Assembly: GCF_963921235.1 (NCBI RefSeq)
Contig: NC_086108.1
Coordinates: forward strand, 34,350,001-34,414,000
From: Mobula hypostoma
Lineage: Eukaryota
DNA length: 64,000 bases
Reading direction: 5' to 3'
The notes under the pieces were generated by a model. That model did not search any database, was not told the origin of the DNA, and saw only the letters and a list, made by a program, of their open reading frames with translations. Positions within the stretch are counted from its first letter, which is position 1. Each line of letters opens with the position of its first letter. Below, piece by piece: positions 1-49,325 of the stretch. Made by a program: the position numbers and the translations under genes.

Positions 1-3000
1 AAAAAAAAGGCCTGCTAGAACCACACTCATGTCAGAAAGTGCAAGAAAGTTTTGCTGGAAAACATTTTCTCACTAGTCAAGGATTTTCTTTAATCTCCAA
101 TGGACCTGGAAATTCCATGGAAGCCTTTTCCCATCTTGCCTCCATCTCACCAATTGCCAGGAATGTAGTCAATCTCATGATCATTTCTGCTGCCCAGCTA
201 TCATACAGTGGGATTCTGGGTAGCTTGAAGACAGTGAGGCCCTGCCGTTTAGATAACCCCTGCCTTTGTTTCCTAGGGCTCTGTTTCAGTAGGTGCTGGT
301 TCACCATCGCTTTCTTAAAAATGATGTCTATATCATTAAACCAAATTATTGCTGAGGATGCCTACTTGAGCAGGTGCAATCAAGGAATGTAGGGATCTCC
401 CAAAGCAATTAGCTGGTACTTTGCATTGACTCAGGCTGTTTCCCAGCTCACTGAAGACAACACTCCCATGAATTGTTTGCCATAGACCAGGGATACCCAA
501 TCGCTTTTTTATGCCATGGGCTAATACCATGAAGCAAGGGCCCCAAACCCCTGATTTAGACAATATTTAGAAAGAAAATCAAAAACTGCTTCTGAAGGCT
601 TTCAGAATCCCAGTAACCAATTACCTAACACAGAAGCAATTTGTAACAGAACAATTCCTTCCTGGTTGTCACTTTGCTAAGAAGCAAAAACTTGGCACAG
701 ATGTTCACTTATGTTAAAAAAAGTTATATTAACTTATGTTAAAAATATTAATGCACAGACTTGACTCAACTTTTCATTTCACTAATGTGTTTTTTTTTAT
801 GAACAAGACATACCACGGGCCCCTGTACACAGAGGGAGGCTGAAGCAGTCAAAAAGCAGAATAAGTGGGCAGAAATTTGGAAGTTCATTATTTCATATAA
901 GGTTCTCCAGAAAATACAGCACTGGAACAGATCATTTTGCCTGTGTAATTCATGCCAGTCCTTCGGATCCAGAATACACTGCTCCTCATATGTTGCTACA
1001 AATTTTAAATGTACAGTTTTCTTTCAATAGCCAGTTCTATGGCCTCATCTCTGTGGTTTTAAAGAAATTTCCTTTCACCTTCCATTTGCACTCTGGTTTT
1101 GTTGTGATGGTAACTTCAAATTCAAGTATCATTAAACCGAATATGATCATAGCCAAATGAAACAGTGTTCCTCCGAGGCCAAGGTGCAAAGCACACTGCA
1201 CATAGCACAAGTGGCACATATGGTTATGATTTCAGAAGAAAATGCAGTCACAAGTGAAAAATAATAGTACAGCCTAAGTCACTGAGTTGTCCTGGTCTAG
1301 CTTGTACTTCCACTGAGTGAACACCAGAGGGCAGCGCTGATAGGGCAGGCACAGTACTAAATCCAGTGGCACACAGTCAGCTCCAGCATCGTCTTTGCCA
1401 GAAACCACAACAGACATCTGTGAGGCATGGGGACCTTTACAGCACAACAACCAAGGCAATGCAGCTGCCCTGCCGCCAGTCTCACCAATGAACCAGTGAA
1501 CTGGACTTGCAGTACTCTATGCTGCATAAGTCCAACAGGATCTTGCAAACACAATCAAAATGTCCGAACAATCACTTGGCAGCTTTTTTTTTTGGACCGG
1601 GCACCAAATCAGCTCAATGGTATGCAATAAGTCCAGCTCCATTGCTACCAAGCTACTCACTAATGGGATAGTCCTGCAGTACTTGATGTATCCAGAGGTG
1701 ACTTGCGATCATAAAAGAGACATACAGGACAAACAAATACACATTTGATTGGACCCGGAATGGCTGCTGCATCTGAGCACACCACCATTTTATTGAAAGC
1801 AGAATTTCTACTTACCCCCACCAGGAGAAACAGTCCCTCTGTTAATAAACCATTGAAACCTTTCCTAATGTAAAAACAAAACCCTGTACAGTCTCTCCTT
1901 GGTCATTCCTAATCATGAGACTGTTTATCCCTTCTGAAGCTCACACTTTAGCAGAATTTTTTAATCTCTTCCTTGCCCTCCTGAGCGTCCCTCCGTTCTT
2001 TTTATCATTAAGAAAACTAGAAGACCAAACTCCCCATCTCCCTTCCTCACAAGTTCATGCTCTTACCAAGACATCTGCTTGTTCTGGAGTGCTGCTTGCT
2101 GAACAAAAACCTCCTTCCGTCTTCCTGACAGGAACCCTGTTGAAAAAGGGAAGTAGAGGAACTAAAATCCCACAGCTTGTGAGCAACCTGGACTTCTGGG
2201 TTACCCATTTGAACTCACCTACCCAATTCCTGCTCAATTCATCAAGACCCTGTGTCTTTTCCTGGAAAATTCAATTGATTTGTAGGGTAAGTAACAGTTG
2301 ATGGATTTTTCACACTGTTCTTGCTACGCTGTTCATACTTCCACAATTTAGGATCTTCATTTTAGTTTATGGTTCCTCTCTAAAGCCCGACCTAACTCAA
2401 TAGTCAGCTATTTCAAAGACCTAGATATCACTGGGAATAGATTAATTACCCTAATTTGCATTAATTAATGCAAATGAAGGTAATTTACAGTGAAATTCCA
2501 CTTCCAGATCAACAGTCCAAGGTCTGTAATAACAACTGCTGCAAACCCTCTGTAATTTTTTTTTAAAGCTGCTATTAGGGAGTGAACTGGAGAGACTTTC
2601 AAATACTTTTCTTGTATCCTAACATTAAATTACACCAGTTTGCTCATTCTTTCTCCTGTCACTCAACATTCATCTTAGATCGAGTGGACAGGATATGTTG
2701 GAAACAATTTGCCGAAGGACCCACAGATCTTCATAATGATTCCAATGCTTTTTAAAGTATGCACTATGAAATCTTCAGACCAAGTACTTCAATTAAACAT
2801 TCCAATGCAAAAGGCAACTCCATCTTCCAGAATACTACTCTGCCAGTAATTAGTCCCAATAAAGGAAAAGAATGAACACAATATTTGAAAGACAAATGAA
2901 GGACATCCAAGGAAATTGGGTGCATGACTTGGGCGTAGCTCATTTGCCCCCCACATTGATGGGAAAACGCAGGAACCAAAGAAGGAAAGGAAATGTGAAG

Positions 3001-5048
3001 AAGCGTCCCACTCCAGGAATTCTAGCACTAAGTTCAGGCTGACACTCCAGTGCTGTGTTGCGGAAGTTACACAGTGTCAGAAGTTCTGTGTTTAAGAGTA
3101 AATAAAACAGTAAACAAAAGACATAATGGTTCAAATTAATGGTTCAATTTAATAATATATACAGTATTCAAACTGAAATTGTTACTCTTTGCAGACATCC
3201 ACAAAACAGAAAAAACCCAAAGAATGAATAACATCAGAACCCCAAAGGTTTTCCTTCTTAAAAAAATCTCAGAGCGGAGTTTTAAATATGCAGTGAGGAG
3301 GGAGGTGATGGCGAGATGTCCAAGTCTAATGATCACAACTCTTACTTCTCATGATCAACAGTCATCCATCAGTATGGACCCCTACCAACTGGGCCATGCC
3401 CTCTTCTCACTGCTGCCTGCATCAGGAGGTACTGTACACAAGCCTAAAGACTCACACCTCAGGAATACCCTACAGTTTCTTCCCTACAAATTGCTCATGG
3501 GGAACATCGTACTAAATATCCAAGGAAAGGGGGGGGGGTAAGATTTTTTTTTAACGACTTGGGATAAAAGAGGCACAACTGCACAGGTGCGTGACCTCAG
3601 AGCGTGGAAGGCTTAAAAAAAACACTGCCATATCCATGCGGGTAGATCGGAGTGGGCAGCGGAGTGAGAGGGCGCAGAGTGATAGGGCTTTGGCTTAACA
3701 GGCTTAGGCGGAAACAGGAAGAGGCTTCCTGCCACCGTTGAGTCTCATAGTAAAGGGGTAAGTTACAGGTTTATTTATTTAGTAATAACAATAGCATTAG
3801 AGATATGCATCTAGGATTAGTGTTGTGCTTGGAGTGCCAGATGTGGGGACCCTGGGAGACTCCCAGCCTCCCCAAGGATTACATCTGCACCAGATGCTTT
3901 GAGATGAGACTCTTTAAGGACCATGTTAGGGATCTGGAGCTGCAACTTGATGACCTTCAGCTAATTAGGGAAAGTGAGGAGGTGATTGATAATACCTATA
4001 GAGAGATAGTGGACAGCACCTCTGTGACAGTCCTCCTCAGAAATCAATATGTCGTTTTAGATACTGTTGGAGAAGTTGACCTGACAGAGGAAGACCACTG
4101 CGAACGGGACTCTGCCCAGTGCTGCAATCAAGAGAGCAAGGAGAAATGCAGTAGATATAGGGGATTCCATAGTGAGGGGAATAGGCAAGAGATTCTGTGA
4201 GCCGGACAAGGATACCCAGATGGTGTGTTGCCTCTCTGGTGCCAGGGTATGGGATGTCTCAGATCGGGTCCAGAGTATTCTGAGGAGAGAGGGTGAGCAG
4301 CCAGAAGTCTTGGTACATGTTGGTACTAATGACATAGACAGGAAAAAGACAGGAGGTCCTGAAGGAAGATTACTGGGAGCTAGGAAGAAAATTGAAAAGC
4401 TGGACCTCCAGAGTAATAATCTCAGGATTACTGCTTGAGCCACGCACTAATGAAGGTAAGAATAGCAGAATTAAGCAGATGTATGTGTGGCTAAGTAACT
4501 GGTGCAAGGGGCAGGGCTTCAAATTCTTGGATCATTGGGATCTATTTTGGGGGATAAACAATGGGTTACACCTGAACTCAAAGGGTATTAATATCCTGGC
4601 GGGATTGTTTAATATAGCTGTTAGGGAGGGTTAAAACTAGGTTGGCAGGGGGAAGGAAACCAGGGTGTTAGGGTTGAGGAAGAGGAAAATAGAAATAAGT
4701 CAAAGATACTGTGCAGCAAAGATGGCAAGAAGGACAGGCAGGTGAATAAACAGGATAATTTGCTGTGTGATAGAAATATAGCAAAATCGCTAACAGATAC
4801 TGATCTAAATGTACTGTACTTAAATGCACGCAGCGTTAGAAATAAAGTGGATGACCTTGTTGTACAGCTACAGGTTAAAAGATATGACATTGTGGCCATC
4901 ACTGAGTCATGGTTAAATGATAGATGTGATTGGGAGCTGATTGTCCAAGGATACACAGTGCATAGGAAAGGTAGGAAGGTAGGTAAAGGAGGTGGCTAGA
5001 TGGAGGGACGGTGAGCAGAATTGGATGAAATTCCTACAAGAAATAAGG

Positions 5049-7534
5049 TTGTGATTGTGGGAGATTTTAATTTTCCACACATAGACTGGGAAGCCCATAC
5101 TGTAAAAGGGCTGGATGGTTTGGAGTTTGTCAAATGTGTGCAAGATAGTTTTTTTGCAGCAATACATAGAGGTACCAACTAGAGAAGGGGCAGTGTTGGA
5201 TCTCCTGTTAGGGGATGAGATAGGGCAGGTGATGGAGGTTTGTGTTGGGGAGCACTTCGGGTCCAGTGATCACAATACCATTAGTTTCAATATAATTATG
5301 GAGAAGGATAGGACTGGACCCAGGATTGAGATTTTTGATTGGAGAAGGGCTAACTTTGAGGAGATGTGAAAGGATTTAGAAGGAGTGGATTGGGACAATT
5401 TGTTTTATGGGAAGGATGTAATAGAGAAATGGAAGTCATTTAAAGGTGAAATTTTGAGGGTACAGGATCTTTATGTTCCTGTTAGGTTGAAAGGAAAGGT
5501 TAAAAGTTTGAGAAAGCCATGGTTTTCAAGGGTTATAGGAAACTTGGTTTGGAAAAAGAGAGGGATTTATAATAAATATAGGCAGCTTGGAGTTAATGAG
5601 GTGCTCGAGGAATATAAAGAATGTAAAAGAATCTTAAGAAAGAAATTAGAAAAGCTAAAAGAAGATACGAGGCAGCTTTAGCAAGTAAGGTGAAAATAAA
5701 TCCAAAGGGTTTCTACAATTATATAAATAGCAAAAGGATAGTGAGGGATAAAACTGGTTCCTTAGAGAATCAAAGTGGACGGCTATGTGCGGAGCCAAAA
5801 GAGATGGGGGAGATTTTGAACAATTTCTTTGCTTCTGTATTCACTAAGGAGAAGGATATTGAATTGTGTAAGGTAAGGGAAAAAAGATGGGTAGTTATGG
5901 AAAGTATGACAATTAAAGAAGAGGAAGTACTGGCGCTTTTAAGGAATATAAAATGGATAAGTCTGCGGGTCCAGACAAGATATTCCCTAGGACCTTGAGG
6001 GAGGTTAGTGTGGAAATAGCAGGGGCTCTGACAGAAATATTTCAAATGTCATTAGAAACGGGGATGGTGCCGGAGGATTGGCGTATTGCTCATGTGGTTC
6101 CGTTGTTTAAAAAGTGATCTAAGAGTAAACCTAGCAATTATCGGCCTGTGAGTTTGACATCAGTGGTGGGTAAATTGATGGAAAGTATTCTTAGAGATGG
6201 TATATATAATTATCTGGATAGACAGAGCCTGATTAGGAACAGTCAACATGGATTTGTGCGTGGAAGGTCATGTTTGACAAATCTTATTGAATTTTTTGAT
6301 GAGGTTACTAGGAAAGTTGACAAGGGTAAAGCGGTGGATGTTGTCTATATGGACTTCAGTAAGGCCTTCGACAAGGTTCCACACGGAAGGTTAGTTAGGA
6401 AAGTTCAATCATTAGGTATTAATATTGAAGTAGTAAAGTGGATTCAGCAGTGACTGGATGGGAGACGCCAGAGAGTAGTGGTGGATAACTGTGTGCCAGA
6501 TTGGAGGACGGTGTGTAGCGGTGTGCCTCAGGGATCTGTACTGGGTCCAATGGTGTTTGTCATATATATTAATGATCTGGATGATGGGGTGGTAAATTGG
6601 ATTAGTAAGTATGCAGATGATACTAAGATAGGTGGCATTGTTGATAATGAAGTAGGTTTTCAAAGATTGCGGAGAGATTTAGGCCAGTTAGAAGAGTGAG
6701 CTGAAAGATGGCAGATGGAGTTTAATGCTGAAAAATGTGAGGTGCTACATTTTGGTAGGACTAATCAAAATAGGACATACATGGTAAACGGTAGGGCATT
6801 GAAGAATGCTGTAGGACAGAGGGATCTAGGAATATTGGTGCATAGTTCCCTGAAGGTGGAATCTCATGTGGATAGGATGGTGAAGAAAGCTTTTGGTATG
6901 CTGGCCTTTATTAATCAGAGCATTGAGTATAGGAGTTAGGATGTAATATTGAAATTGTATCAGGCATTGATAAGGCCGAATTTGGAGTATTGTGTACAGT
7001 TCTGGTCACCGAATTATAGGAAAGATGTCAATAAAATTGAGAGATTACAGAGGAGGTTTACTAAAATGTTGCCTGGGTTTCATCTCCTAAGTTACAGAGA
7101 AAGGTTGAACAAGTTAGGTCTTTATTCTTTGGGGCGTAGAAGGTTGAGAGGGGACTTGATAGAGATGTTTAAAATTATGAGGGGGATTGACAGAGTTGAC
7201 GTGGATAGGCTTTTTCCTTTGAGAGTGGGGAAGACTCAAACAAGAGGACATGAGTTGAGAGTTAAAGGGCAAAAGTTTAGGGGTAACATGAGGGGGAACT
7301 TCTTTACTCAGAGAGTGGTGGCTGTGTGGAAAGAGCTTCCAGAAGAAGTGGTTGAAGCAGGTTCGATGTTGTTGTTTAAAGTTAAATTGGATAGATATAT
7401 GGACAGGAAGGGAATCAGGGTTATGGACCGAGTGCAGGTCAGTGGGACGAGGTGAGAGTAGGAGTTCGGCACAGACTAGAAGGGCCGTACAGGCCTGTTT
7501 CCATGCTGTAATTGATATATGGTTATATGGTTAT
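5049..7534 (+). mobile_element. 5'-truncated CR1 LINE (element B) nested in element A
   Basis: APE C-terminus (GDFN, LDLLL, SDH) and RT (KYADD) with stops. (TATATGGT)n tail. 11-bp TSD aagaaataagg at 5038-5048 and 7535-7545. Confidence 0.92.
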
Positions 7535-9052
7535 AAGAAATAAGGAAAGTACAGGAAAGATATATTCCAAGAAAAAAGAAAATCATGAATGGAAAAATGA
7601 CACAAGCGTGGCTAACGAGAGAGGTTAAGACTAAAACAAAAGCAAAAGAGACGGCGTACAAGGAAGCAAAAATTAGTGGGAAAACTGAGGACTGGACGAC
7701 TTTTAAAAACTTACAGAAGGAAACTAAGAAAGTCATTAGGAAAGAAAAGATGAATTATGAAAGGAAGTTGTCAATTAACATAAAAAAGGATACTAAGAAT
7801 TCTTTTAAATATATGAAGAGTAAAAGAGTGACATAGGTAGATATAGGACCAATTGAAAATTATGTTGGAGAAATTTTAACAGGTAACAAAGAGATGGCAG
7901 AGGAACTAAATGAGTATTTTGCATCAGTCTTCACAGTGGAAGACATTAGCAACATACATGATAGCCAGAGGTCTCAGGGAATAGAATTAGGTACAGTCAA
8001 GATTACTGGAGAGAAAGTGCATGGGAAGCTAAATGGACTAATAATAGATAAGTCTCCCGGACCAGATGAGGTGCACACACAGGTTCTGAAAGAGGTGGTT
8101 TTGGAGATTGTCGAGGCATTGGAAATGATCTTCCAGGAATCAATAGACTCTGGCATGGTTCCGGAGGACTGGAAGGTTGCAAATGTAGTTCCGCAGTTTA
8201 AAAAAGGAGGGAGGCAGCAAAAAGAAAATTACAGACCTATTAGTCTGACATCAGTAGTTGGAAAGTTATTGGAGTCGATCCTCAAGGACGAGGTTATGAA
8301 ATACCTCGAGGTGCATGACAAGATAGGCCCAAGCCAACATGGTTTCACGAAGGGAAGACCCTGCCTCACCAACCTATTGGAATTTTTTTAGGTAATCTCA
8401 AATAATATTGACAAGGGAGAGGCTGTGGAGGATGTGTATTTGGATTTTCAAAAGGCCTTCGATAAGGTGCCGCATATGAGGCTGCTTAATGAGATGAGAG
8501 CCCATGGAAATACAGGAAAGATATTGGAATAGGTGGAGCATTGGCTGATAGGCAGAAAGCAAAGGGTGGGAATAAAGGGATCCTATTCTGATTGGTTGCT
8601 GGTTACTAGTGGTGTTCCGCAGGGGTCGGTGTTGGGGCCGCTTCTTTTTGCAATGTATATCGATGATTTGGATTATGGATTAAATGGTTTTGTGGCTAAG
8701 TTTGCGGATGACACCAAGATAGGTGGAGGAGCGGGAAGTGTTGAAGAAACGGAAAGGTTGCAGAGAGACTTGGTCAGTTTAGGAGAGTGGGCAAAGAAAT
8801 GGCAGATGAGATACAATGTTAAGAAATGTACGGTTGTACATTTTGGAAGAAAAAATAACCGGGCAGATTATTATTTAGATGAGGAGAAAATTCAAAAATC
8901 GGAAGTGCAAAGGGACTTGGGGGTCCTCATGCAGGATACCCTAAAGGTTAACCACCAGGCTGGATCGGCAATAAGGAAAGCGAATGCTTTGTTGGCATTC
9001 ATTTCAAGAGGAATAGTGTATAAGAGTAAAGAGGTGTTGATGAGGTGCTATG

Positions 9053-9911
9053 TGTCATGGTCCGGTCTGTGAAGTCTGCATTCCGGTTCACGGTCCGGTC
9101 CATCAATCCGTATTCTAGGTTTTCCTGTTATCCCTGTTTCTGTTGGGTGCTCTAATTGAGGCACATGATTCTTGTTTGGGCAGACACATAAATATCTCTG
9201 GAGACCAGGGCTTGGCTGCTGGATTGTTCCTGTCCAAACCCCCATCTGAATCCAGTCCAGTCCAGTCCAATCCAATCCAAAGCCCTGGCCCCAAGTCCTG
9301 TTCCCAAGGAGGGGTCCTGGCTCTGTGTTCCATGTCTCTGTGTATCTGTCCTCTCAAGACCAAGGCTTGGTGTTCCTGTCCTCCCTCAACCTAGTCAAGG
9401 CTTTGTGTTCTTGTCCTGTCCATGTGCCTTGCCCAGCCCAGGAGTACCATGCCCAGCCTGGTGCCGGGGTTCCCTCATCCTGTCCAAGCCATGTCTGAGA
9501 ACCTTATCCTGTCCAAGCCACGTCCGAGAACCTCATCCTGTCCAAGCGCCTCGTCCTGTGCAGGAGTTCCACATCCAGTCCTGTAGCCATGTCATATCTT
9601 TGTCTAGTTCTGGAGTCCGAGCCTGTCAAGACCCAGGTTCTGGGTCCTTGCCCAGTCTCTGGCTCGGAGTCGGAACCCAGGCCTCGCCATGTCCTCACCT
9701 CAAGGAACCCAAGCCCAGGCTCTCAGTTCCCAGTTCCTTGTCCTGGTCCTGCTTGCCTAGCCAATGTCCTAGCCCAAGTCTGTGTTCTTGTCCCAGCTCC
9801 TAGTCTGCATCCAGTCACGTTCCTAACCCAGCTCTCTCGTCGAGTCCTGCTCCTAGTACTCAGTGTCTGTGTCTTGCATTTGGGTCCACCACCAATGCCC
9901 CCCTTATGACA
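9053..9911. mobile_element. Solo LTR (859 bp) inserted in CR1 element A
   Basis: TGTCAT...ATGACA inverted termini. 5-bp TSD ctatg at 9048-9052 and 9912-9916. The CR1 reading continues across the insertion. Confidence 0.85.
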
Positions 9912-11418
9912 CTATGAGGCACTGGTGAGACCTCATTTGGAATACTGTGTGCAGTTTTGGGCCCCCTATCTTAGAAAGGATGTACTGATGTTGGAGAGTT
10001 CAGAGAAGATTTACGAGGATGATTCCTGGAATGCAAGGGCTAATATATGAGGAGTGTTTGTCGTCTCTTGGACTGTATTCATTAGAGTATAGAAGAATGA
10101 GGGGGGATCTCATAAATACATTTCGAATGTTGAAAGGGTTGGACAGAGTAGATGTGGAAAGGCTGTTTCACTTGGTGGGTGAGTCCAGGACAAGAGGCCA
10201 GTGTTAGAATTAGAGGGTACTCATTTAAAACAGATAAGGAGAATTTTTTTTGCCAGAGGGTCGTGGATTTGTGGAATTCGTTGCCACATACAGCTGCGGA
10301 GGCCTGATCATTGAGAGTGTTTAAGGAGGAGATTGATAGGTATCTAATTAGTCGAGGTATCAAGGGATATGGGGAAAAAGCCGGAAATTGGAACTAGATG
10401 GGAGAATAGTTTAGCTCATGGAGAAGTGGCGGAGCAGACTCGATGGGCTGAATGGCCTACTTCTGCTCCTTTGTCTTGTGATCTTCTCTTGTGACTTAGA
10501 AACAGCTCATTTGCCCACCCACAATATCAGGGGACAAAGAGGGAAACAAAGAAGGAAAGTTCCACTCCAAGAATTTGAGCAGCAAGTTCTTCTCACCTTC
10601 CATACTATCAATCAGTTTCTTGAACTAACTTGGAAAACCCTAATTCTACCTCAGGCTGTATTTCCCTCAACCTGCATTAATATCATTATGTTATTTTTGT
10701 TTTGTATGTTTTGTAAATTATGTATAATTTATGCTAATTTAAGTTTATGTAATTATATTTGTCATGTTAGCAATGTACTGTACTGCTACTACATGAAGAT
10801 CACCTTCATGGTCATTATACCCTGGATATGTATGCTTATGATAATAAACTTGAACTTCTGATCCTCCTGTTATCAAATTACAAGGGGCAGCTTGCTGAGC
10901 GCAGATTTTCGATATTCCAACAATATTACACTTTGAAGTACTTCACTGTTTGTAGTATATGGCCGTTTGAGGACCTGAGAGAGACTTCTGATGTGTTAAT
11001 TTTTCAATCTAACATATTATAATACTGTATATTACTGGAAGAGTGCTGTATTACACAAATGTACCTTGTGATCAGGATTAATTTCCATATAACCATATAA
11101 CAATCACAGCACGGAAACAGGCCATCTCTGCCCTTCTAATCCATGCCGAACTCTTACTCTCACATAGTCCCACCGACCTGCACTCAGCCCATAACCCTCC
11201 ATTCCTTTCCTGTCCATATATCTATCCAATTTAACTTCAAACGACAACATCGAACCTGCCTCAACCACTTCTGCTGGAAGCTCGTTCCACACAGCTACCA
11301 CTCTCTGAGTAAAGAAGTTCCCCCTCATGTTACCCCTAAACTTTTGCCCTTTAACTCTCAACTCATGTCCTCGTGTTTGAATCTCCCCCCACTCTCAGTG
11401 GAAAAAGCCTATCCACGT

Positions 11419-12251
11419 TGTGACGAATACACATAGATAAGATGTTAGCTGTCCTGTGTGATCAGCAGTTGGTCTGCCACCTGGCTTCAAGAGAGAGATA
11501 AGGGACACAATGAAACAGCACCTGGAGATGTGTAGAGAGCTGTCTGGAGCGGCTCCCCCTTTGAACCCTGAACTGTTTGAAGTGATGGACAGGCGATACC
11601 CCAGCAGGGGGATAAAAAGGGACAGGTTCGCTAAGGCAGGACATACACGACACCCGTGGTAACGAGACCCTGGAAGCGGTGCGCCTCTCACGAGTGGGTG
11701 AGAAGTACCAGACAACGACCAGGGTGGAAAGGTACGATCAGCAGGAACCTGGTGTGTGTCTGCCCTTGCTTGGGTGCCGGGTTCACTGCAGAGGATCGAC
11801 CGCATCTGGAGGAGGGGTCACAGTCGGTGACCTCAGGTGACATCACCAAGGACCGGCCCGAAAGCTGCTTGTGAGCCATATCGCCGGTCTGTGAGTGGAA
11901 GCCGTGTCTGAATGATCAGTCGTTCCCGTTCTCTCTCTCTCTCTCTCTCTCCCCCCACGTTGTCCATCGCCATGGCAACGATTACTGCGAACTGAACTAA
12001 ATTGGACTGAACTTTTGTGTCACTTTGAAATTTGGTCATTTACCCCTAGACAACGATAGAGCCTGATTGATGCTGTTATCTTAATTCTGTGCACATGTGT
12101 GTTTATCATTGCTGAACTGTTGCATTTATTATCCTTTCGATTCCTGTGTTGCTTGTTTCTTTAATAAAACTTTCTTAGTTCTAGTAATCCAGACTCCAAC
12201 TGAGTGATCCATTTCTGCTGGTTTGGCAACCCAGTTACAGGGTACGTAACA
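11419..12251 (+). repeat. 5' LTR (833 bp)
   Basis: Direct repeat of 15444-16272. TATA-like gataaaaa near 11612; AATAAA at 12163-12168. Confidence 0.95.
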
Positions 12252-12255
12252 TAAG

Positions 12256-12274
12256 TGGGGTTCTCGTCCGCGAT
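12256..12274 (+). promoter_or_regulatory. Primer-binding site, tRNA-Pro-like
   Basis: tggggttctcgtccgcgat lies 4 nt after the 5' LTR and resembles the tRNA-Pro PBS TGGGGGCTCGTCCGGGAT. Confidence 0.75.
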
Positions 12275-12350
12275 TTTGAACGCTAAATTTGGGACGGAGT
12301 AAATTGATTGGGTTAAAATTCCCGAAAGAAAGAAAAGACAAACAGCAGAA

Positions 12351-16272: not shown

Positions 16273-16859
16273 ACGTCAACTCCTATCTATCTCCCTCATA
16301 ATTTTAAATACTTCTATCAAGTCCCCCCTCAACCTTCTACATTCCAAAGAATAAAGACCCAACTTGTTCAACCTTTCTCTGTAACTTAGGTGATGAAACC
16401 CAGGTAACATTCCAGTAAATCTTCTCTGTACTCGCTCTGTTTTGTTGGCATCTTTCCTATAATTCGGTGACCAAAATTGTACACAATACTCCAAATTTGG
16501 CCTCACCAATGCCTTGTACAATTTCAACATTACATCCCATCTCCTATATTCAATGCTCTGATTTATAAAGGCCAGCATACCAAAAGCTTTCTTCACCACC
16601 CTATCCACATGAGATTCCACCTTCAGGGAACTATGCACCATTATTCCTAGATCCCTCTGTTCTACTGCATTCTTCACCATGTTAATGCTCAAGGAACTCG
16701 GTCATTTCATTTCATAAATGACTCCTAAATTTCATAATTCCTCCGCATTGCTGTGATGTCACAATGACGGGTCGTCCCGACCTTGAATGGAATAATTTCA
16801 GGAATATCCCCATGTACAGCAGATGGAAATACAACACTTTCAGACAAACTTCACTAACA

Positions 16860-26335: not shown

Positions 26336-27452
26336 TTAATTTCACATTAACCTTACTCTCAGATGCTGCCTGACCTACTGAGTATACCAGAATTTTTATT
26401 AATATTTCGGGTGTCCAGCAGCTTTTTGCTTTCAGATAACCATTCTCTCAAGGCCAGATGATCTAAAGTCAATCCCACTCAGGTGGGATGATCATAAAAT
26501 AGTTCTTTTTATTACTTAGGTACAACTTCTGGAAAATATGAAAGTGGAAATGAAGGCCCAAGACAAACCTTTTGTCCCATTGTGTAAGTATCCTGAAGTA
26601 ATAATATAAATTCAACACAGCATAACAAGCTAATACTCACCACAAGGACTGATTGACATAATTTTCAGTTGACTGAAGGTTACATTTGCTCACCATTGAT
26701 CCTGAAGACATGAAAGGGAAAACTCAAAACTTAGAAAATGGTTGATGCAGTGCCTTAATGTAAAAGGAATTTCCATTATGTGAACATGAATCAGTCGAAG
26801 AACATTATCCTCTCAGTTTCATACAAGATCACTCCAACAAAATACATATACTGCTCCCCTCCCTCAGTGACAAAAGAGTCTGCCAAACATAAACATTGCC
26901 TCTTTCAAAAATCTGCAGTTGCCCCAGTCTACATACCATTATTCTAAAATCTTTGTTTCCGCTCCCTTTCAATAGATTGCGAGGCCTGGACAATGAGACA
27001 GTGAGGACCTGAAGCAAAGAAATAGAAAAGCATCGATGTGATATGCAGAAGCATTTGCGCACTTTGCTTCAATTGAAAGCCATCACCCCTCGAGCTCATG
27101 GAAAGTGAAATATTTTGTAAATCTTACTCAAGTTTGATTGTTTAAAAATAGGCTAATAAAAGCATGTCAGCAGAAAGGGATGGGCAAGCTGAATGTATTA
27201 AAACCAGTCCTGTTTTGTTTCTCCTTTGCTGTAATTTGTACATTTCTTGGTTTACAAGCATCTGCTTTATGAATTTTTGTGATGATGCTATTGACATTTC
27301 AACATACTTGTCTTCAGTTCACAAAAATACTTTTGTCTGATAAATTTTGTGCTGCATTTAACACTTCAGAAAATAGTGTACCAAATGCACATGATACTTT
27401 TCACCCATTCTTTTTGATTTGAAAACGTTTGTTTCATAAAATATTTTCCAGG

Positions 27453-29330: not shown

Positions 29331-29455
29331 AATAGATCTCTGTTGTCTACAGAGGAATGGCTATGCATAAAAATCTTCAATTATACAATAACATAAAGCA
29401 GAATACCTCACTGAATGCACAATAGAGCACAAACTGTTAATCCTCGGAGACTTAC

Positions 29456-29486
29456 CCAACAAGCCACCCAAAAATCAACCTGAAGG

Positions 29487-29537
<51 letters not shown>

Positions 29538-29694
29538 CTGTATCTGAGGATGAAAGAGTTGGATTCAGTACCTCTTCTAGTCTGCTTCTTTCCTTGGGCA
29601 GTACTCCAACGTCCTTACTGTGAAGGACCTCTTCAGCCCAGGGCTGCTTCAGAAGGTTCTCTTGCAACAGCTGTCCCCATGTCTGCAGCTGCAG
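29456..29694 (-). pseudogene. Exon remnant, kinase subdomain XI and post-kinase linker
   Basis: Acceptor ttccccctgtcag, then LLQENLLKQPWAEEVLHSKDVGVLPKERSRLEEVLNPTLSSSD...RLIF. Compare GCN2 LLNHDPAKRPTATELLKSELLPPPQMEESELHEVLHHTLTNVD...AQIF. Donor-like gtaagt at 29455. The 3' boundary is uncertain. Confidence 0.75.
29491..29536. repeat. (TG)n microsatellite within the GCN2-like exon remnant
   Basis: Seen directly. Confidence 0.97.
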
Positions 29695-31150: not shown

Positions 31151-31920
31151 TCCAAGCCTCCACATAAATGCAAGCTTGTCTCTTAACTATGTTTTCTCGG
31201 CTGAAATAAAGCAATCTCATTGCTTCACTTCAAGGCGAGTGCACATCATTATACAGACTATGATCAGGAACTGTTCCAAGAAATTTTAATGTATTGTCAG
31301 GCTTGATGCATTGATTCAGATGGAGAACCAATTGAAAAGTTAATTTTAAGAATTAAACAGCTGGTATAATTATGGCAACCAAAGTGTTAGATATTACAAA
31401 AGCAAACAAATCACTGTTCTTCTATAAAAGGCATTTGCCATCTCTATCTAGTCCAACCTAGCTGTGACTCCAGTTGACTTCTAATTGCCTATTCAGGTGA
31501 GGCAGACATGGAGGAACAATAAATGTCAGCAATGTTCAGGTTGCATGGACAAATGCATTGAAAGGAACCTGCTGCTTGTGCCAAGTTTTTTAGCACCTTC
31601 AGTCACTCAACAAGCACAAGCTCAGGAATTCTGGCCGCAATAGGAAATCCTTTGCTCTGTCAGCCAAAAGCTTGTGTATGCAGCACCATGGAGAAGTCAA
31701 AAGCACATTTTACATTTATTTGTAGTTTTCACTGAATCGGAAATTTGTATTAATAGCAATTCAGTTCACATTTGTTCATGTTGCTGCACCTTTAAAAACG
31801 CACGCTTTCATACATTACTGACAAAGGAAGTTCTGTCCATGGGAACGGAGAGATCAAACCAATTCTTGTTTGGGTACAAGACAACTTTTATCACTGTGTA
31901 GGGTGAAGAAAAATCCTTAC

Positions 31921-32019
31921 ACATTTCCAAATCCTATCCCTCAGCTTCCGGCTTTCTTGAACTGTGCACTGGAAAGGCATATCCCGGATTACCATCCCAC
32001 AGCTGTACATAATTGCCCA
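31921..32019 (-). pseudogene. Exon remnant, kinase subdomain IX
   Basis: WAIMYSCGMVIRDMPFQCTVQESRK aligns without gaps to GCN2 KVDLFSLGIIFFEMSYHPMVTASER. Good donor gtaagg. The polypyrimidine tract ends ttgcat, with no AG acceptor. Confidence 0.6.
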
Positions 32020-35495: not shown

Positions 35496-36785
35496 TATCT
35501 AAGGTATGACTAGTGCTGGGATCCCAATGGTTGGTAGAAATAATGAAGAATGATGTGCTAGCTCCCAGCAGCTATGACAGAGAAAGGTAAGGGCCAAGAG
35601 AACCATTTCTGTGCTGTTTCGGGGAAGGGTGTGGGAGCTGAAGTTTGGGAAGTGGAAGAAATAGGAGTGCAGGTTCCATCAAGCACAGGAGAGTGGGCAA
35701 CAGGAAATTGCTAAGGGCCTGTACTGTGCTGCACAGTTCTATATTCTATGTTTCTCTCCCCAAGGAAAGTTTCTCAGAAATCCTGCAACATAAAGCCTTA
35801 TCCTCAGAACAGATGCAGCAGAAACAGAAATACTGAGTGAAAAGGATAAAGTTCTTCCAGGAGACATGGCAGGAAGAGATGTAGTCGCGGTGGCTGCGGG
35901 AGTACCTGTTGGAGGAGTGCGATGGGATGCTGTTTATCATTATTTTTACTCTGGTAGATAATAGGAAATACTGACAATTGGAATATAGATATCGGGTTTG
36001 TAACATCAACAAGTTTCAACTTCAGAAACTCCAAGGGCTATTTTAAACAAGGAAGCGTATCTGATCAGATTAGTCCATCCGAAAATATTTAACAGAGAGG
36101 TTGATGGTGTGTAATCTGGGGAAGCCAGTACCCCTCAAACCTGACCACATTTGTTCTCTGCTGAGTGAAATAAGCTATAATTACTCAGTCAAACATTACA
36201 GAGGTCACAAAAGGGATGAATGTGATGAAGTAAACCTGATTATAAATGAAACTCCCTTGGAGGCACTTACAAACGAATGGCCATTGAAACAATGAGGCGG
36301 AAAGTACATACCCAGTCGTACATTGTCTTGTGCTGCCTTGTTTAAACCTCTGGAGCCAGGTAACCCTGTGTTCCAATATTCACTGTAAACTACTCAGAGT
36401 CGAATAAAGGAAGTGCCCTGATTGAGGACTGCAATTAGAGAGGAATGGTCTGGTTAAAAGACGCTGAAAAAGTCAATTTGTTTTGTGTGTGTTTTGAAAT
36501 GTATCTTAAGTATAAAAACATTTAGTATGATTGTTTAAATGAAATGAACATTTCAACCTTTAAATTGGATATGAAAACCATATCTTATTTAATCATTTTC
36601 TCTACTGTACTGGTGCAAATATATGACAAAATAAAATATAGTAATTGGATTACTGAAATTTCTAAGAATAGGTTGCCCATAATTCACAAATGATTTTCAC
36701 CTCTAAGAATGGCATTGAAACTAAGCTTCTGGAATCAATGTCAATATTTTGCCAAGGCTTTTTTTTTGTGGATGCAGTTTTCAGT

Positions 36786-36975: not shown

Positions 36976-38529
36976 GGGGTTAAAATTGTAAAGAAACGAA
37001 CAGCGGCTAATTTTACACTCCACCTGGGTCCAGCTCAATTTGTGCATCCATTTTGTTCCTGTGTTTCTGTACATCCCTTAAATATGAAGCACTGTGTATA
37101 CAATTAACTTTTTTCTGTACAGTGAACGTATTCATTCATTCAGCTTTGCCAGTGATCCTCTGACTGTTGCTTAATCATAGATTGAACAATGCAATGGTAA
37201 TGAGTTTCTTGATTACACTGCAGATCATATAAGCTTGTGTTTTATGGATAGATGTAGACAGATTCTGATTTAATAGTGTGGAGTGTAGATACGTGATACC
37301 TTATTCACAGCATAGATGCCAGATGCAGTATTGATTGGCCCTATTCTTTTCTGTGATATACACTGGCAGTCTCAGTTACATTGCTCAATCGTATCATTGT
37401 TTTCATGAAGAAGTGCAGTACTTTTTTGATTATTGGGTTCCAAATGCTCTTGAAATTCCCATACACTTTTCCAAAAATATAGCTGAAGGCTAGACAAGCA
37501 GATGAATGATGGGTCAAAAACTAACAGTTTTTTTAATACATTGTAGACTTGAAAATGGCTTTCAACATTTTTCTGGGGCACGCATCTGTAAATAAATCAT
37601 GAAATTGACCAAACTGAAATTTTGAATCGGTATTGGGTGGATTAGATCAAGAAAGATGTGCTATAATGGAACCAGTGTGCTTCTTGATGGACCACGCTCA
37701 GGTAGCTCAACTGGCTGCACTTACTGCAAGTCAGCCCTTAAAGAGACACTCACGTGGCAGCCGGACACTGCAGAGGCTTTCATAGGAGAGAGAGGTCAAA
37801 GGGCAGACAATCAGAGCTCCACGGTTCGCACAATGCAATTCTGAACTTTTGGTGCAGGAAATAGAAGCTGGGAAGGTGCACTGTGCACTGCGTGACAGGA
37901 GAGCTATTCTGGCCTTAATAAAGGAACATGAAAAACGTCCAAGACAGCAAACATCAGGAATTAACAATCTCCCAAGCTGTGGAGAAATTCGGGGTAAAAT
38001 GTCATGACATTACTACACATACAATGATACCCCCTCTATCTCTCAAAAAATCCCAGAGATTGGATAATAAGATGGTTTCTAAATGTCCTTCACCACCTCC
38101 ATTTGGGTGGAGAGAGTGAGGAATAGAAAGGAGATCCATCATGCACTAATGGACAGAGGAGGATCAAGCTGAGAATAACCAAAGACTAGGGCAATCTGCA
38201 TTCCCTTGCTGTGCTCACTAAATCTTTATTGAGATGATCAGCAGTGAAGATCTTCATTCCATTTTACTCATACAGCATGACAGGAAAAGTTAGAGATTCC
38301 CAAATGCCGGACAGGAGAACATAGAGAAGTGGGAGGAACATAAGAGGACATGGAGGAAGAAGAGGAGTGGGGGAGTGATCATGGAGATGAAGAGCACGGT
38401 GCTTTGACACAGCAAATCCCCTGTTGCTATATGGCACCAGCTCAGAGACCGGCATTGTGAGGCATGAAGAAACTGGATCAAAGGAACGCCTTTCACATAC
38501 AAAGAAAAAGTAGAAAACGGATCATGGAA

Positions 38530-40030: not shown

Positions 40031-40077
40031 AGAAAAGGCACAAGATTGTTCAAGTATAAACCAATGAGTTTGAATCT

Positions 40078-43178: not shown

Positions 43179-43292
43179 CTGTGATGGAGAGATTCTGGAC
43201 AACTGAATCTTCATGGCAAAATCTTCAATTTTTACATTTCCACCTTGATCATTAAATCTGTCCCCAGGCTTCAGGTCTCGATGTATGATGCC
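43179..43292 (-). pseudogene. Exon, kinase subdomains VIb-VII
   Basis: tttttacag / 114 nt, phase 0-0 / gtagtg. Encodes GIIHRDLKPGDRFNDQGGNVKIEDFAMKIQLSRISPSQ; compare GCN2 [28 protein letters not shown]. Confidence 0.85.
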
Positions 43293-46244: not shown

Positions 46245-46713
46245 GGTACACAGATCTTGGCGTCCATCCTCGGCTTTGCGTGTCACCTGTTGCCGGGGCC
46301 GGGGTCGAAGCGCTCAGCAGAGATGGTGTTCAGTGCTCGGTGTCGAAGAGGTGGGTCAGAGGCTCGGAGTTTTTCAGACGGACTCGGAGTCGGACTGTGA
46401 TCGGATGCTTCCAGGATGCTGCATCAGCAAGTTGGTGGCGCTGGAGGTTTACCATCTGCGTGAGATGATGGGACTTCCGAGAGACTTTGAGACTTTTATT
46501 GTGCCATGGTCTGTTCTCATCAGATTATGGTATTGTTTTGCACTGTTGTAACTATATGTTATAATTACATGGTTTTTGTTAGCTTTTAAGTCAGTTTGTC
46601 ACTTGTTTTCGTGATATCATTCTGGAAAAACATTTTATCATTTCTTAATGTATGCATTACTAAATGACAATAACAGGGGACTGTGTCCTCATAATCATAA
46701 TCATAATCATAAT
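46245..46713 (+). mobile_element. LINE 3'-UTR/SINE-like insertion with an (ATAATC)n tail
   Basis: CpG-retaining body and a tandem hexamer tail at 46690-46713. It abuts the kinase II-IV exon remnant. Confidence 0.55.
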
Positions 46714-46951
46714 TGCTGTCAGTCTGTTGCGCGGACGCCTCACAATCGGAACTCAGAGTCCTCACTCTGCTCAGCCATCACTGTGCAATCCAGTTCCTCA
46801 ATCCAAGCATCGTGATAGCGCACAACACTCCTGCGGCTTAGCTTCGAAGGAACCTTCACCTCAGTCAGAAAGGAACTTCCAGCTCACTTCCTATCGTGCA
46901 ACAAGTGGATGCACTTCAGTGCATCGACTTTCTCCTCAAGGCTGCAGGTGC
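46714..46951 (-). pseudogene. Exon remnant, kinase subdomains II-IV
   Basis: Acceptor tttctcttag, then TCSLEEKVDALKCIHLLHDRK*AGSSFLTEVKVPSKLSRRSVVRYHDAWIEE. Compare GCN2 NKLDGCCYAVKRIPI...GEVTLLSRLHHENIVRYYNAWIE. In-frame TGA at 46884-46886. Confidence 0.85.
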
Positions 46952-47169
46952 CTAAGAGAAACTAAATGAACCATTGGTGGTTATGTACAGAATTGCTAAT
47001 GGGAAGGGGCAATTCGAGAGCAATGATCTACTGCAAGCCACCAAATCGTACAAAGAAATTTTCCAAACTGAACCACACTGCGATGTGAATGTGAAAAAGC
47101 AAGGCCTCTTTCCACCTGCCAACTAGATTAAAGAAAGTTGCTTTCCCCCCATGACCCTCACCGATTTCT

Positions 47170-49122
47170 TATTGATGCATTGTAGAAAGCATCCGATCCA
47201 GATGCACCATGGCTTGGCATGGCAACTGCTCTGCCTGTGACCACAAGAAACTGCAAAGTGTTGTGGACACTGCTCAGAACATTACAGAAACCATCCTTCC
47301 CTCCATGGTCTTTGTCTATACTTCCTGCTGCCTCCATGAGGTAGCTAACATAATCAATGACAACATAATTATATAGGAAGGAGACTGAAAATCTGTTTGA
47401 AAGGTGCCACAAGGACTACCTCTCATTTAACGTCAGCAAAACTGAAGAGCAGATTATTGACTAGAAGAGGAGGAAATAGGAGGTCCATGAGCCAAGCCTC
47501 CTTAAGGTATGAGAGTTGGAGAAGGTCAGTAACTTTAAATTCCTCGGTGTTATCATTTCAGACGGTTTGCATGTTGGGACTAGCATGTAAGTGCCATACC
47601 AAGAAGGCATGGCAGCAACTCTACTTTCTTAGAAATTTGCACAGATTCAGCCTGTCATTGAAAACCTTGACAAACTTCTATTGATGCACAGTGGAGAGTC
47701 TCTTGACTGGATGTTTTCTATGTTTCTATGTTTCAATCATGACCTGGTATGGAAACACCAATGCCCAAGAATGGAAAAGTCTACAAATGCAGCCCAGAAC
47801 ATCACAGGAAAAGCCCTCCCCACCATTGAGCACATCACATGGAGCACAGCCACAGGAAAACAGCATCCATCATCAACAGCCCTCACTATCCAGGCCATAC
47901 TCGCTTCTTGCTGCTGCAATCAGGAATGAGGTACCGGAGCCTTGGATCCCATACGTCCAGGTTCAGGACTCTATAACTCATGTCCTCAGTGTTATTTATT
48001 CACTTACTTATTTATTTATTATTATATTTTTAATTTGCTTTTGCACTGTTGGGTTTTTTTTTGCACATTGATTGTCAATCTTAGTATGTAGATTTTAATT
48101 GATTCTGTTGCATTTCTGTTCTACTGTGAATGCCTTCAAAACATTAATCTGAAGATAGCATATGGTGATGTATATGTAGTATATGTATATGGTATATATA
48201 GTACGTAGCACATGGACTTTGAACTTTGACCCACTCCATATATTCTCCCTTCTCCCCCTTCCATTGTGTAGAAGATAGGAAAGCCCGAAAGCATGTATCA
48301 TGAGGCTTATCGACAGCTTCTACCCAACTTCTCTGAGACAATTAAACTGTTTTTGAGAATAAGATGGGCTCTCGACCTCAAAATCTACCTCATTATGATC
48401 TTGCACCTTATTATTTACCCGCAACACCACAAAGATAATTAACAATATATTTTCTCTGAAGCTGTTACACTTTATTCAGCATCTGTTATTGTTTTATCTT
48501 GTTCTATCTCAACGCTATGTGTAATGAATTGATCTTTACGAACAGTATGCAAGACAAGCTCTTCACTGTACATCGGTATGCGACAGTAATAATAAGACAA
48601 CCAAACAACAATAAACTTATGTCCTCCATTTAATGCCAGTTCTACCAGTCTGTTGTTGCCAGTACAATCTTCTACGTGGTGGTGTGCTGAGGCAATGGCA
48701 TCAACACAGGTGATGCCCACAGGCTCAATAAACTGATTCGAAAACCTGGCTCTATTATTGGAGTCAAACTGGACACACTGGAGGCTGTGCTAAAACAAAG
48801 GACCCTATTTTGGCAATTCTGGACAACGTTTCCCACCCTCTGCGTGCCAATTTGACTGAACGGAGGAGCACTTTTAGTGATAGACTAAGACAACTGCACT
48901 GCTCCAAAGAGTGCTTTACGAGGTCATTCTTACCCTCGGCCATTAGGCTCTATAGTGAGTCAACTTATACCAGGGAAGTGATGACCCCCTACTGTTAGAC
49001 TGTTTGAAGCAACTTTTTTTTTATTCTTTCTACTTCTCTTCTAATATTTATATCTGTGCATTTGTAATGCTGCTGTGACACTGTAATTTCCTTTGGGATC
49101 TATAAAATATCTATCTATCTAA
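47170..49122 (+). mobile_element. Cluster of Rex1-like LINE 3' fragments
   Basis: KKAWQQLYFLRNL..L.NFY, ESLLTGC, and AILDNVSHPL..FTRSFLPSAIRLY; ttgaactttga and (TATC)n tails. Confidence 0.75.
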
Positions 49123-49201
49123 TAACAACACCTGTTGCTGAAAAAAACTTTCAGCAGAAATGAAAATAATCACAAAGATGAATTTTCAACTCATAATTTC
49201 A

Positions 49202-49325
49202 CCAGGCTTGTAGACAATTTCAAATCCACCTTGGTCAAAGCATTCAATATCCATGTCACCTTTACTCTGCGGGATTTCTCAGACTTGGTCCAATACATTC
49301 TCCCTTCGCCACATCAGATGAAACT
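49202..49325 (-). pseudogene. Exon remnant, kinase subdomain I (Gly-rich loop)
   Basis: After an acceptor-like ccctcatag the minus strand reads KSR, then after a frameshift DIECFDQGGFEIVYK. Compare GCN2 SRY..EFEELQLLGKGAFGAVIK. Two of the three loop glycines are replaced. Confidence 0.6.

What the first reader, a model, noticed from the sequence alone, without database searches (positions are those of the whole stretch)
250..49325. Hidden fossil of a highly diverged GCN2-like eIF2-alpha kinase gene
Seen: five minus-strand exon remnants in kinase order over 20 kb, most with splice signals, largely invisible in the ORF track. They include eIF2-alpha-kinase-type motifs (LE....ALKCI, VVRYHDAWIE, HRDLKP) and the GCN2-type post-kinase linker (E.S.LEEVL..TL...D). 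Established: GCN2/EIF2AK4 is normally single-copy and well conserved in jawed vertebrates. Inference: divergence this deep with introns retained fits an ancient duplicate, possibly a whole-genome-duplication ohnolog, that evolved fast and then died. Relatives might still carry it as an undescribed extra eIF2-alpha kinase. The alternative, that this is the species' only GCN2, would mean loss of the amino-acid-starvation sensor.
Basis: partly seen in the sequence, partly recalled or inferred. Interest (0 to 1): 0.8.

Follow-up and report, generated by a model that had tools for sequence, protein, structure and literature searches.

The report
Dead shark-type second GCN2 kinase gene
This ray DNA holds the broken remains of a shortened second copy of the stress kinase GCN2 that is intact in gene models of 14 other sharks and rays, where it keeps its catalytic residues but has lost the starvation-sensing parts, so it likely works as an extra, unstudied switch on protein synthesis that this ray lineage lost long ago.

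Summary
Confirmed and extended. Eleven collinear minus-strand exon remnants (49361 to 770; the gene runs off the window) are 69% identical to a sawfish 'GCN2-like' RefSeq protein but only 22-26% to canonical GCN2. They carry 7 stops, 4 frameshifts, lost exons and broken catalytic residues: an old pseudogene (about 0.16-0.20 substitutions per base). The living orthologue occurs in 14 elasmobranch species, five of which also have canonical GCN2; none was found outside elasmobranchs. It keeps the kinase, activation-loop and alphaG threonines, and a HisRS-like fold. It lacks RWD, pseudokinase and CTD, and has Leu for the tRNA/ribosome-sensing m2 arginine in 14 of 14 species, like the laboratory m2 mutant. 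It is likely an eIF2-alpha kinase uncoupled from starvation (untested). The duplicate kept GCN2's introns. Its age is unresolved: trees favour the vertebrate stem, a chondrichthyan origin is only marginally rejected (p=0.044), and ohnology is untested. The scan had already noted the intact gene in another genome (e1-8036389, e1-8036392); new here are the loss and the residue map. I found no paper on the family.

The parts
49207..49361 (-). First coding exon remnant (sawfish residues 7-57; G-loop). One TGA stop; G48D and G53E; acceptor AG kept, donor lost
   Evidence: 38 of 51 identical
46712..46951 (-). Exon remnant, residues 58-153 (AxK lysine, alphaC Glu, start of kinase insert). -1 frameshift at its start, one TGA stop, 47-nt internal deletion (frameshift), cut off by a repeat
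   Evidence: 50 of 64 plus 8 of 11 identical
46600..46713 (.). (TCATAA)4 microsatellite followed by a high-copy repeat where the exon breaks off. Residues about 154-257 (hinge, alphaD, alphaE) were not found
   Evidence: (contig depth 3e4-6e5 in bin 46600-46693)
43179..43292 (-). Catalytic-loop exon, residues 258-291: HRDLKP kept; N268D, G280E, DFG read as DFA; 12 nt longer in frame; AG and GT kept
   Evidence: 18 of 25 identical over 258-282
37024..37076 (-). Activation-segment exon, residues 292-309; +1 frameshift; AG and GT kept
36312..36398 (-). Exon with GTxGYLAPE, residues 310-338; two stops (TAG, TAA); acceptor lost, GT kept
   Evidence: 21 of 28 identical
31921..32016 (-). alphaF-alphaG exon, residues 340-371; D341I, R361S; acceptor lost, GT kept
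   Evidence: 22 of 32 identical
31617..31688 (-). Exon remnant, residues about 374-397; both splice sites degraded
   Evidence: 17 of 23 identical
29407..29688 (-). Kinase C-terminus and post-kinase linker, residues 398-479; R412Q; two stops; in-frame 36-nt (CA)n expansion inside the exon; AG and GT kept
26937..27008 (-). Start of HisRS-like domain, residues 484-508; -1 frameshift and one stop; AG and GT kept
   Evidence: Weak by score alone (33 vs control 33); accepted for collinearity, two adjacent matching pieces and splice sites
16746..16820 (-). HisRS-like exon, residues 509-533; both splice sites degraded
   Evidence: 18 of 25 identical
770..822 (-). HisRS-like exon, residues 549-565; 3-nt poly-A expansion; AG kept, donor probably mutated. 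The exon for 534-548 was not found
   Evidence: (profile E 0.03)
50046..63999 (.). 28-bp satellite array starting about 680 bases upstream of the first coding exon; no upstream exon or promoter was identified

Best explanation
The window holds a dead, intron-containing orthologue of a shortened second GCN2 gene that is intact in gene models of 14 sharks and rays, where it likely acts as an eIF2-alpha kinase that no longer responds to amino-acid starvation. Shown: (1) the remnants belong to this elasmobranch family and group with the ray members; (2) they cannot encode a kinase; (3) the living proteins (about 880-920 aa in most models) start at the kinase domain, keep every catalytic residue and a HisRS-like fold, and lack RWD, pseudokinase and CTD; (4) several regulatory residues are changed in all 14 species. 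Inferred: the gene arose by DNA-level duplication of a vertebrate-type GCN2, before sharks and rays split and probably on the vertebrate or jawed-vertebrate stem. A burst of change then removed the GCN1/ribosome/tRNA inputs: RWD, pseudokinase and CTD gone, m2 Arg to Leu, GGRY to GGQY, alphaA Arg585 to Leu, acidic patch weakened. It kept the substrate-docking alphaG threonine, both activation-loop threonines and the autoinhibitory insert strand. Predicted working mode (about 50%): output set by where and when the gene is expressed, or by a new partner at the remodelled HisRS-like domain, with the missing CTD raising basal activity. In this ray lineage the gene decayed neutrally for about 0.16-0.20 substitutions per base, likely from early in the stingray-order lineage. 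Confidence about 0.95 for identity and death, about 0.5 for the mechanism of the living protein.
For: Identity: 272 of 395 aligned codons match sawfish P0001. Over about 340-360 columns identity is 58-69% to the 14 short proteins and 22-26% to 32 canonical GCN2s. The window groups with Pristis and Narcine at 100/99. Death: 7 stops; 4 frameshifts read; G48D, N268D, D341I, R412Q; 67 of 237 shark-invariant columns changed vs 10 in Pristis and 24 in Narcine (Fisher p 3e-13 and 7e-7); neutral simulation fits both the 32% amino-acid difference and 6 stops in 365 codons at d 0.16-0.20. Family: 10 clusters, 14 species; a single 50% cluster at 1657 bits among 1.84 billion representatives, the next real hits being canonical GCN2 at 291 bits or less. 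Five species hold both genes, four of them on records of different length. GCN2 ancestry: best solved match human GCN2, E 5e-89, from residue 593 on; the AlphaFold model (pLDDT 73) matches GCN2 HisRS-like domains first, E 3e-23; exon-sized gaps in canonical gene models end at six window intron positions. Residues: (14 short, 22 vertebrate and 10 invertebrate GCN2 rows). Meaning of those residues: PMC6421407 (m2 F1143L/R1144L abolishes tRNA binding and lowers ribosome binding; CTD deletion raises basal activity about 20-fold), bioRxiv 10.64898/2026.09.09.750423 (insert strand 695-723 repressive, acidic patch binds eIF2-alpha, T943 needed for substrate phosphorylation, S808G constitutive), PMC10124904 (R585Q blocks activation by uncharged tRNA).
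Against: No activity, substrate or expression data for the living protein. Several changes point to low activity rather than high: R585 lost, acidic patch weakened to 3-5 D/E per 9 residues vs 6-9, inhibitory strand kept. The long stem (4.6) makes the date of duplication weak: short plus gnathostome GCN2 is not rejected (p 0.40), an origin older than deuterostomes is not rejected (p 0.11), and a chondrichthyan origin is rejected only at p 0.044. Diagnostic sites split 9 vs 7 (vertebrate vs invertebrate state) and 3 vs 5 (gnathostome vs others). The sister position to Pristis is 91/84 only, and the alternative is not rejected (p 0.15). An intact second copy elsewhere in this genome could not be excluded. 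Absence from protein collections is not proof of loss: Hemiscyllium has canonical GCN2 listed but no short protein, although its close relatives do.
Confidence: 0.75

Rival explanations
1. The living short protein is not an ISR activator. It is a damper or partner of canonical GCN2 (for example through HisRS-like heterodimers), or a kinase with a different substrate.
For: The alphaA Arg/Glu pair is Leu/Gly in 14 of 14 and the acidic eIF2-alpha-binding patch is weakened. The repressive insert strand is kept. A basic C-terminal tail replaces the CTD in most models.
Against: alphaG Thr-x-x-Glu-Arg (T357, E360, R361), T314, T319 and all catalytic residues are invariant in 14 of 14, as expected if eIF2-alpha docking and catalysis are still selected. 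At about 27% identity to GCN2 a preserved heterodimer surface is doubtful.
Confidence: 0.3
2. Origin: a true whole-genome-duplication ohnologue of EIF2AK4 kept only in elasmobranchs, as opposed to a single-gene duplication of similar age.
For: The free tree puts the family on the vertebrate stem (96/89); a gnathostome-stem position is not rejected (p 0.40); introns are shared; the two genes lie on different chromosomes in four sharks.
Against: No flanking gene lies in the window, so synteny is untested. No trace in chimaera, bony fish or cyclostome proteins, which would need several losses.
Confidence: 0.3
3. Origin: duplication within the cartilaginous-fish stem, followed by very fast divergence that pulls the family to the base of the tree.
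For: Found only in elasmobranchs; the stem of 4.6 changes per column invites long-branch attraction.
Against: The AU test rejects short plus chondrichthyan GCN2, but only at p 0.044. At the 2 columns diagnostic for chondrichthyan GCN2 the family shows neither state.
Confidence: 0.3
4. The window is a redundant dead duplicate, and an intact short GCN2 survives elsewhere in this genome.
For: No whole genome was available to exclude it.
Against: No stingray-order protein is among the 10 family clusters (that such genomes are annotated is recalled, not shown). Neutral decay accounts for nearly the whole branch since the split from sawfish.
Confidence: 0.07
5. This is the species' only GCN2, so the starvation sensor is lost.
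For: Canonical GCN2 of this species was not seen in any call.
Against: 22-26% identity to canonical GCN2 vs 69% to the short family. No RWD, pseudokinase-specific or CTD exon in the window. Skates and sharks have canonical GCN2 as a separate gene.
Confidence: 0.02

Closest known systems
RefSeq 'eIF-2-alpha kinase GCN2-like' of elasmobranchs (e.g. Pristis pectinata XP_051868882.1, Narcine bancroftii XP_069793906.1, Scyliorhinus canicula XP_038650841.1)
   Same: Orthologue: 58-69% identity over the remnants, same exon order; the exon skipped in a Carcharodon isoform matches window exon 43292-43179.
   Different: Those are open, conserved gene models; the window copy has 7 stops, 4 frameshifts and lost exons. 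They are automatic annotations; I found no paper on them.
Canonical GCN2 / EIF2AK4 (human chain 8t7t)
   Same: Kinase with GCN2-type insert (APP...SVEW strand), post-kinase linker, HisRS-like and anticodon-binding folds, T899/T904/T943 equivalents, six shared intron positions.
   Different: No RWD, pseudokinase or CTD; m2 Arg1144 to Leu; GGRY to GGQY; Arg585 to Leu and Glu589 to Gly; Ser808 to Met or Thr with one hinge residue fewer; weak acidic patch; only about 25-28% identity.
PKR-sis of cartilaginous fishes (Wu et al. 2024, PMC11305385)
   Same: Another extra eIF2-alpha kinase of cartilaginous fishes, shown active in yeast when dimerised; its assay can be reused.
   Different: PKR-sis has its kinase at residues 260-537 and is sister to PKR. 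The short GCN2 has an N-terminal kinase plus a HisRS-like domain, and none of its accessions is in the chondrichthyan supplement rows seen (the Rhincodon rows use an older assembly and cannot be matched).
Unitary (unprocessed) pseudogenes
   Same: Intron-containing, disabled orthologue of a gene alive in relatives.
   Different: Absence of a working copy in this genome could not be tested.

Membership tests
eIF2-alpha kinases (living orthologue) | Kinase domain closer to GCN2/HRI/PERK/PKR than to other kinases | tested here: met
   The family profile ranks all 19 matches at E<=1e-25 as eIF2-alpha kinases (GCN2 kinase-only chains 133-148 bits, HRI 121, PERK 112-115, PKR 101-111) ahead of SPAK at 90
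eIF2-alpha kinases (living orthologue) | Intact catalytic residues (G-loop, K, E, HRDxKxxN, DFG, APE, D, R) | tested here: met
   Invariant in 14 of 14; the third G-loop glycine is Ser in 12 of 14
eIF2-alpha kinases (living orthologue) | Insert between beta4 and beta5, and alphaG Thr for substrate docking | tested here: met
   Insert present; T357 equals human T943, 14 of 14
eIF2-alpha kinases (living orthologue) | Phosphorylates eIF2-alpha Ser51 | not testable with these tools
   Needs a yeast or cell assay
Canonical GCN2 (EIF2AK4) | N-terminal RWD domain | tested here: not met
   25-58 residues precede the G-loop in the models checked; no Pfam RWD in 6 of 6 short proteins, present in 2 of 2 canonical ones
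Canonical GCN2 (EIF2AK4) | Pseudokinase domain | tested here: not met
   The proteins begin at the active kinase; the continuous match to human GCN2 starts at chain residue 593
Canonical GCN2 (EIF2AK4) | HisRS-like domain | tested here: met
   Profile match through human residue about 1435; fold search ranks 1-6 are GCN2 HisRS-like chains; Pfam PF13393 stays below its cut-off, E 4e-4 to 0.025
Canonical GCN2 (EIF2AK4) | m2 motif aromatic-Arg (F1143-R1144) | tested here: not met
   Phe-Leu in 14 of 14; Arg in 22 of 22 vertebrate and 9 of 10 invertebrate GCN2s
Canonical GCN2 (EIF2AK4) | C-terminal dimerisation domain (CTD) | tested here: not met
   The alignment ends after the anticodon-binding part; a short, mostly basic tail follows
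Canonical GCN2 (EIF2AK4) | Activation-loop T899 and T904 | tested here: met
   T314 and T319 invariant
Canonical GCN2 (EIF2AK4) | alphaA Arg585 with Glu589 | tested here: not met
   Leu36 and Gly40 in 14 of 14 in an ungapped alignment; Arg in 20 of 22 vertebrate GCN2s, His in the two skates
PKR-sis | C-terminal kinase (260-537), sister to PKR, no HisRS-like domain | tested here: not met
Unitary pseudogene (window copy) | Disabling lesions with introns retained | tested here: met
Unitary pseudogene (window copy) | No working copy elsewhere in the genome | not testable with these tools
   No assembly held
Whole-genome-duplication ohnologue of EIF2AK4 | Duplication node on the vertebrate or gnathostome stem | tested here: inconclusive
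Whole-genome-duplication ohnologue of EIF2AK4 | Lies in a paralogon of the EIF2AK4 region | not testable with these tools
   No flanking gene in the window, no genome held; passages of PMC7269912 gave no usable assignment

The most novel reading that the evidence does not exclude
Sharks and some rays have an additional ancient vertebrate eIF2-alpha kinase: a GCN2 duplicate whose tRNA-synthetase-like domain was rewired (a natural m2 mutant fixed for the whole elasmobranch radiation) to sense a new ligand or partner. It was lost at least twice in rays (the stingray-order lineage, fossil shown here, and skates), which gives natural knock-outs and a natural test of what GCN2's HisRS-like domain does without tRNA and ribosome input.
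Probability: 0.3. Interest if true: 0.75.

Novelty: new variant of a known kind. Interest (0 to 1): 0.5.

Why it matters
The vertebrate stress response is described as having four eIF2-alpha kinases (PMC5025754, abstract and section 4), plus PKZ and PKR-sis in fishes (PMC11305385). A conserved GCN2 derivative that lacks RWD, pseudokinase and CTD and carries the m2 substitution is a natural version of several laboratory mutants at once. It bears on the open question of whether tRNA, the ribosomal P-stalk or the substrate controls GCN2 (bioRxiv 10.64898/2026.09.09.750423), and it can be tested cheaply in yeast. The fossil shows the gene is dispensable in at least one ray lineage and dates the loss in relative terms. 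The pseudogene alone is an ordinary gene loss, and the scan had already noted the living gene, so the score is moderate.

Tried and rejected
Whole-genome search for canonical EIF2AK4, a second short copy and synteny: no assembly held. Sequencing runs: no RNA holder listed; the one guessed-RNA run laid had no cover on the two exons. Neither is evidence on expression. Laying contigs on 46600-49400 was swamped by intronic repeats, so the letters at the stop codons in other species were not shown (353 difference rows cut). The organism-B contig crosses the 47-nt deletion with one gap, but has only about 24 letters on one side, below the tool's 31-letter bridging rule, so sharing of that lesion is a hint only. 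The first AlphaFold run on 10 sequences failed (pLDDT 34) and was not used. The ESM Atlas search gave HisRS-type clusters at 0.81-0.84, a lead only. Exons for residues 154-257, 534-548 and 566-881 were sought and not found above the reversed-query control. P0156 (319 bits) is a repetitive plant-kinase-like model and was dropped. The first join used a wrong frame for one piece, corrected. The residue labels were off by one and were redone. The 38-row tree finished only as a quick tree. Nine of 47 rows were left out of that tree and 24 of 47 out of the dating tree, for run time and long branches. PKR-sis identity was considered and rejected. Literature searches that found no paper on the family: 0 papers; 0 papers; subscription papers and book chapters are not covered.


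Full report
Observation. The exon around VVRYHDAWIE, read through its stop with X, matched eIF2-alpha kinases in its nine best solved-structure hits. Its only protein hit was a sawfish 'eIF-2-alpha kinase GCN2-like' model, P0001, 881 aa, 78% identical, E 7e-20. Using P0001 and its relatives I mapped 11 collinear exon remnants from 49361 to 770. Nine tblastn pieces reach E<1e-3, against none in the reversed window, the complemented window or 20 local shuffles. Earlier scan notes call this genome a devil ray; I did not test that, but the tree agrees with a ray.

It is dead. The aligned pieces hold 7 in-frame stops in 395 codons. Four frameshifts can be read from the sequence: -1 and -47 nt in the 46951-46712 exon, +1 at 37076-37024, and -1 at 27008-26937. 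Nine of 22 splice dinucleotides are lost or doubtful. Residues about 154-257 and 534-548 were not found, and G48D, N268D, D341I and R412Q break the catalytic core. Of 237 columns invariant in 12 sharks, 67 are changed in the window, 10 in sawfish and 24 in Narcine. A neutral simulation reproduces both the 32% amino-acid difference and the 6 stops in the 365 codons it used at 0.16-0.20 substitutions per base. Contigs from three other organisms cover the exon-2 region with 12 of 547, 27 of 542 and 41 of 452 other letters. So the decay is inferred to be older than those splits; their letters at the stops were not shown.

The living family. P0001 found 10 clusters at 71-83% identity, then a drop to about 27%. 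Their members come from 14 species: 2 rays and 12 sharks. A profile search of 1.84 billion representatives gave one cluster at 1657 bits and, apart from one repetitive artefact, canonical GCN2s at 291 bits or less. Heptranchias, Pristiophorus, Stegostoma and two Chiloscyllium species have both this gene and a canonical GCN2 of about 1650 aa; in the four with record lengths, the two lie on different records. Three skates have canonical GCN2 listed but no short protein. Since sawfish and Narcine keep it, that suggests a second loss (batoid relationships recalled). Hemiscyllium shows the same gap while its close relatives have the gene, so annotation gaps are possible.

Anatomy. The family matches human GCN2 from the kinase start to about residue 1435 (E 5e-89). 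It has no RWD, only 25-58 residues before the G-loop in the models checked, and a short, mostly basic tail instead of the CTD. An AlphaFold model from 52 sequences (pLDDT 73) matches GCN2 HisRS-like domains first, then HisRS enzymes and GCN2 kinase domains. In 14 of 14 species all catalytic residues, the T899 and T904 equivalents, the alphaG T943 equivalent and the APP...SVEW insert motif (V and E in 13 of 14) are kept. Also in 14 of 14, the m2 Arg is Leu, GGRY is GGQY (13 of 13 that have the exon), the Arg585/Glu589 columns are Leu/Gly, and the Ser808 column is Met or Thr with one hinge residue fewer. Human numbering was counted from the chain, which runs one residue ahead. The acidic patch holds 3-5 D/E per 9 residues against 6-9 in 22 vertebrate GCN2s.

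Mechanism (inferred). In human GCN2, F1143L/R1144L abolishes tRNA binding and lowers ribosome binding, and removing the CTD raises basal activity about 20-fold (PMC6421407, passages). The 695-723 strand represses, the acidic patch binds eIF2-alpha and relieves that repression, T943 is needed for substrate phosphorylation, and S808G is constitutive (bioRxiv 10.64898/2026.09.09.750423, passages and section 9; its supplements were not seen). R585Q blocks activation by uncharged tRNA (PMC10124904, passages). The short protein has therefore lost the known starvation inputs but kept catalysis and substrate docking. I think it most likely phosphorylates eIF2-alpha under control of its expression or of a new partner (about 50%). 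A damper of GCN2 or a kinase with another substrate is the main rival (about 30%). Nothing here measures activity.

Origin. Exon-sized gaps in canonical GCN2 gene models end at six places that match window introns within a codon or two: before G258, at 338/339, at 371/372, after G508, at 547-549 and at 563-565. So the copy arose at DNA level. The careful tree (23 rows, 654 columns agreed by three aligners) puts the family on a stem of 4.6 changes per column as sister to all vertebrate GCN2 (96/89; vertebrate GCN2 without it 91/80). AU tests: with chondrichthyan GCN2 p 0.044, with all gnathostome GCN2 p 0.40, outside deuterostome GCN2 p 0.11. Diagnostic sites are split. An age at the vertebrate genome duplications is plausible but not shown. 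Synteny could not be tested; an unchecked note placing ANGPTL3 18 Mb away on the same piece is a weak hint against ohnology in place.

Known or new. The family exists in RefSeq only as 'GCN2-like'. Searches (listings only, except as stated) found no paper on it. Wu et al. 2024 (PMC11305385; first fifth of the text, passages and the supplement rows for six chondrichthyan genera; figures not seen) describe a different extra kinase, PKR-sis. PMC5025754 (abstract and section 4) concludes that vertebrates have four such kinases. PMC7269912 (passages) gave nothing usable for synteny. Two earlier scan notes describe the intact gene in another genome; I saw them after establishing the family, and they are not independent support.

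Verdict. A real, old pseudogene of a real, conserved and unstudied GCN2 variant of sharks and rays. New variant of a known kind; interest 0.5.

Noticed in passing
window 29491-29536: A (CA)23 microsatellite has grown inside the dead exon, adding 36 nt in frame where the sawfish protein reads Thr-His: a microsatellite released by loss of coding constraint.
   Followed up: partly
window 50046-63999: A 14-kb array of a 28-bp satellite with extreme strand skew (GC skew about 0.8) and a 200-N gap at 58600-58799. Earlier notes lie 32 Mb before and 18 Mb beyond the window, so the array is interstitial, not telomeric. It starts about 680 bases upstream of the first coding exon.
   Followed up: no
window 11085-16676: Two repeats of about 1.2 kb (11085-12251, 15444-16676) flank open frames at 12317-15070 with a CCHC zinc knuckle and a protease-like stretch: probably an LTR retrotransposon in an intron of the dead gene (class named from recall).
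   Followed up: no
window 3754-9072 and 19233-24608: Nested LINE-like reverse-transcriptase frames and GIY-YIG (Penelope-like) fragments fill the largest introns, including a 530-codon open frame at 21681-23273 (classes named from recall).
   Followed up: no
proteins P0153 / P0012 (Narcine bancroftii): The electric-ray copy changes 24 of 237 shark-invariant columns against 10 in sawfish, with a branch of 0.14 vs 0.014: possible relaxation in a second ray lineage.
   Followed up: partly
proteins P0329, P0335 (skate canonical GCN2): Both skate GCN2s have His at the column of human Arg585, which is Arg in the other 20 vertebrate GCN2s aligned; R585Q is a human disease allele.
   Followed up: no
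proteins P0319, P0433, P0438 (Chiloscyllium punctatum): Two separate accession series of full-length 'GCN2-like' lie on the same 149-Mb record: a recent tandem copy of canonical GCN2 or an assembly duplication.
   Followed up: no
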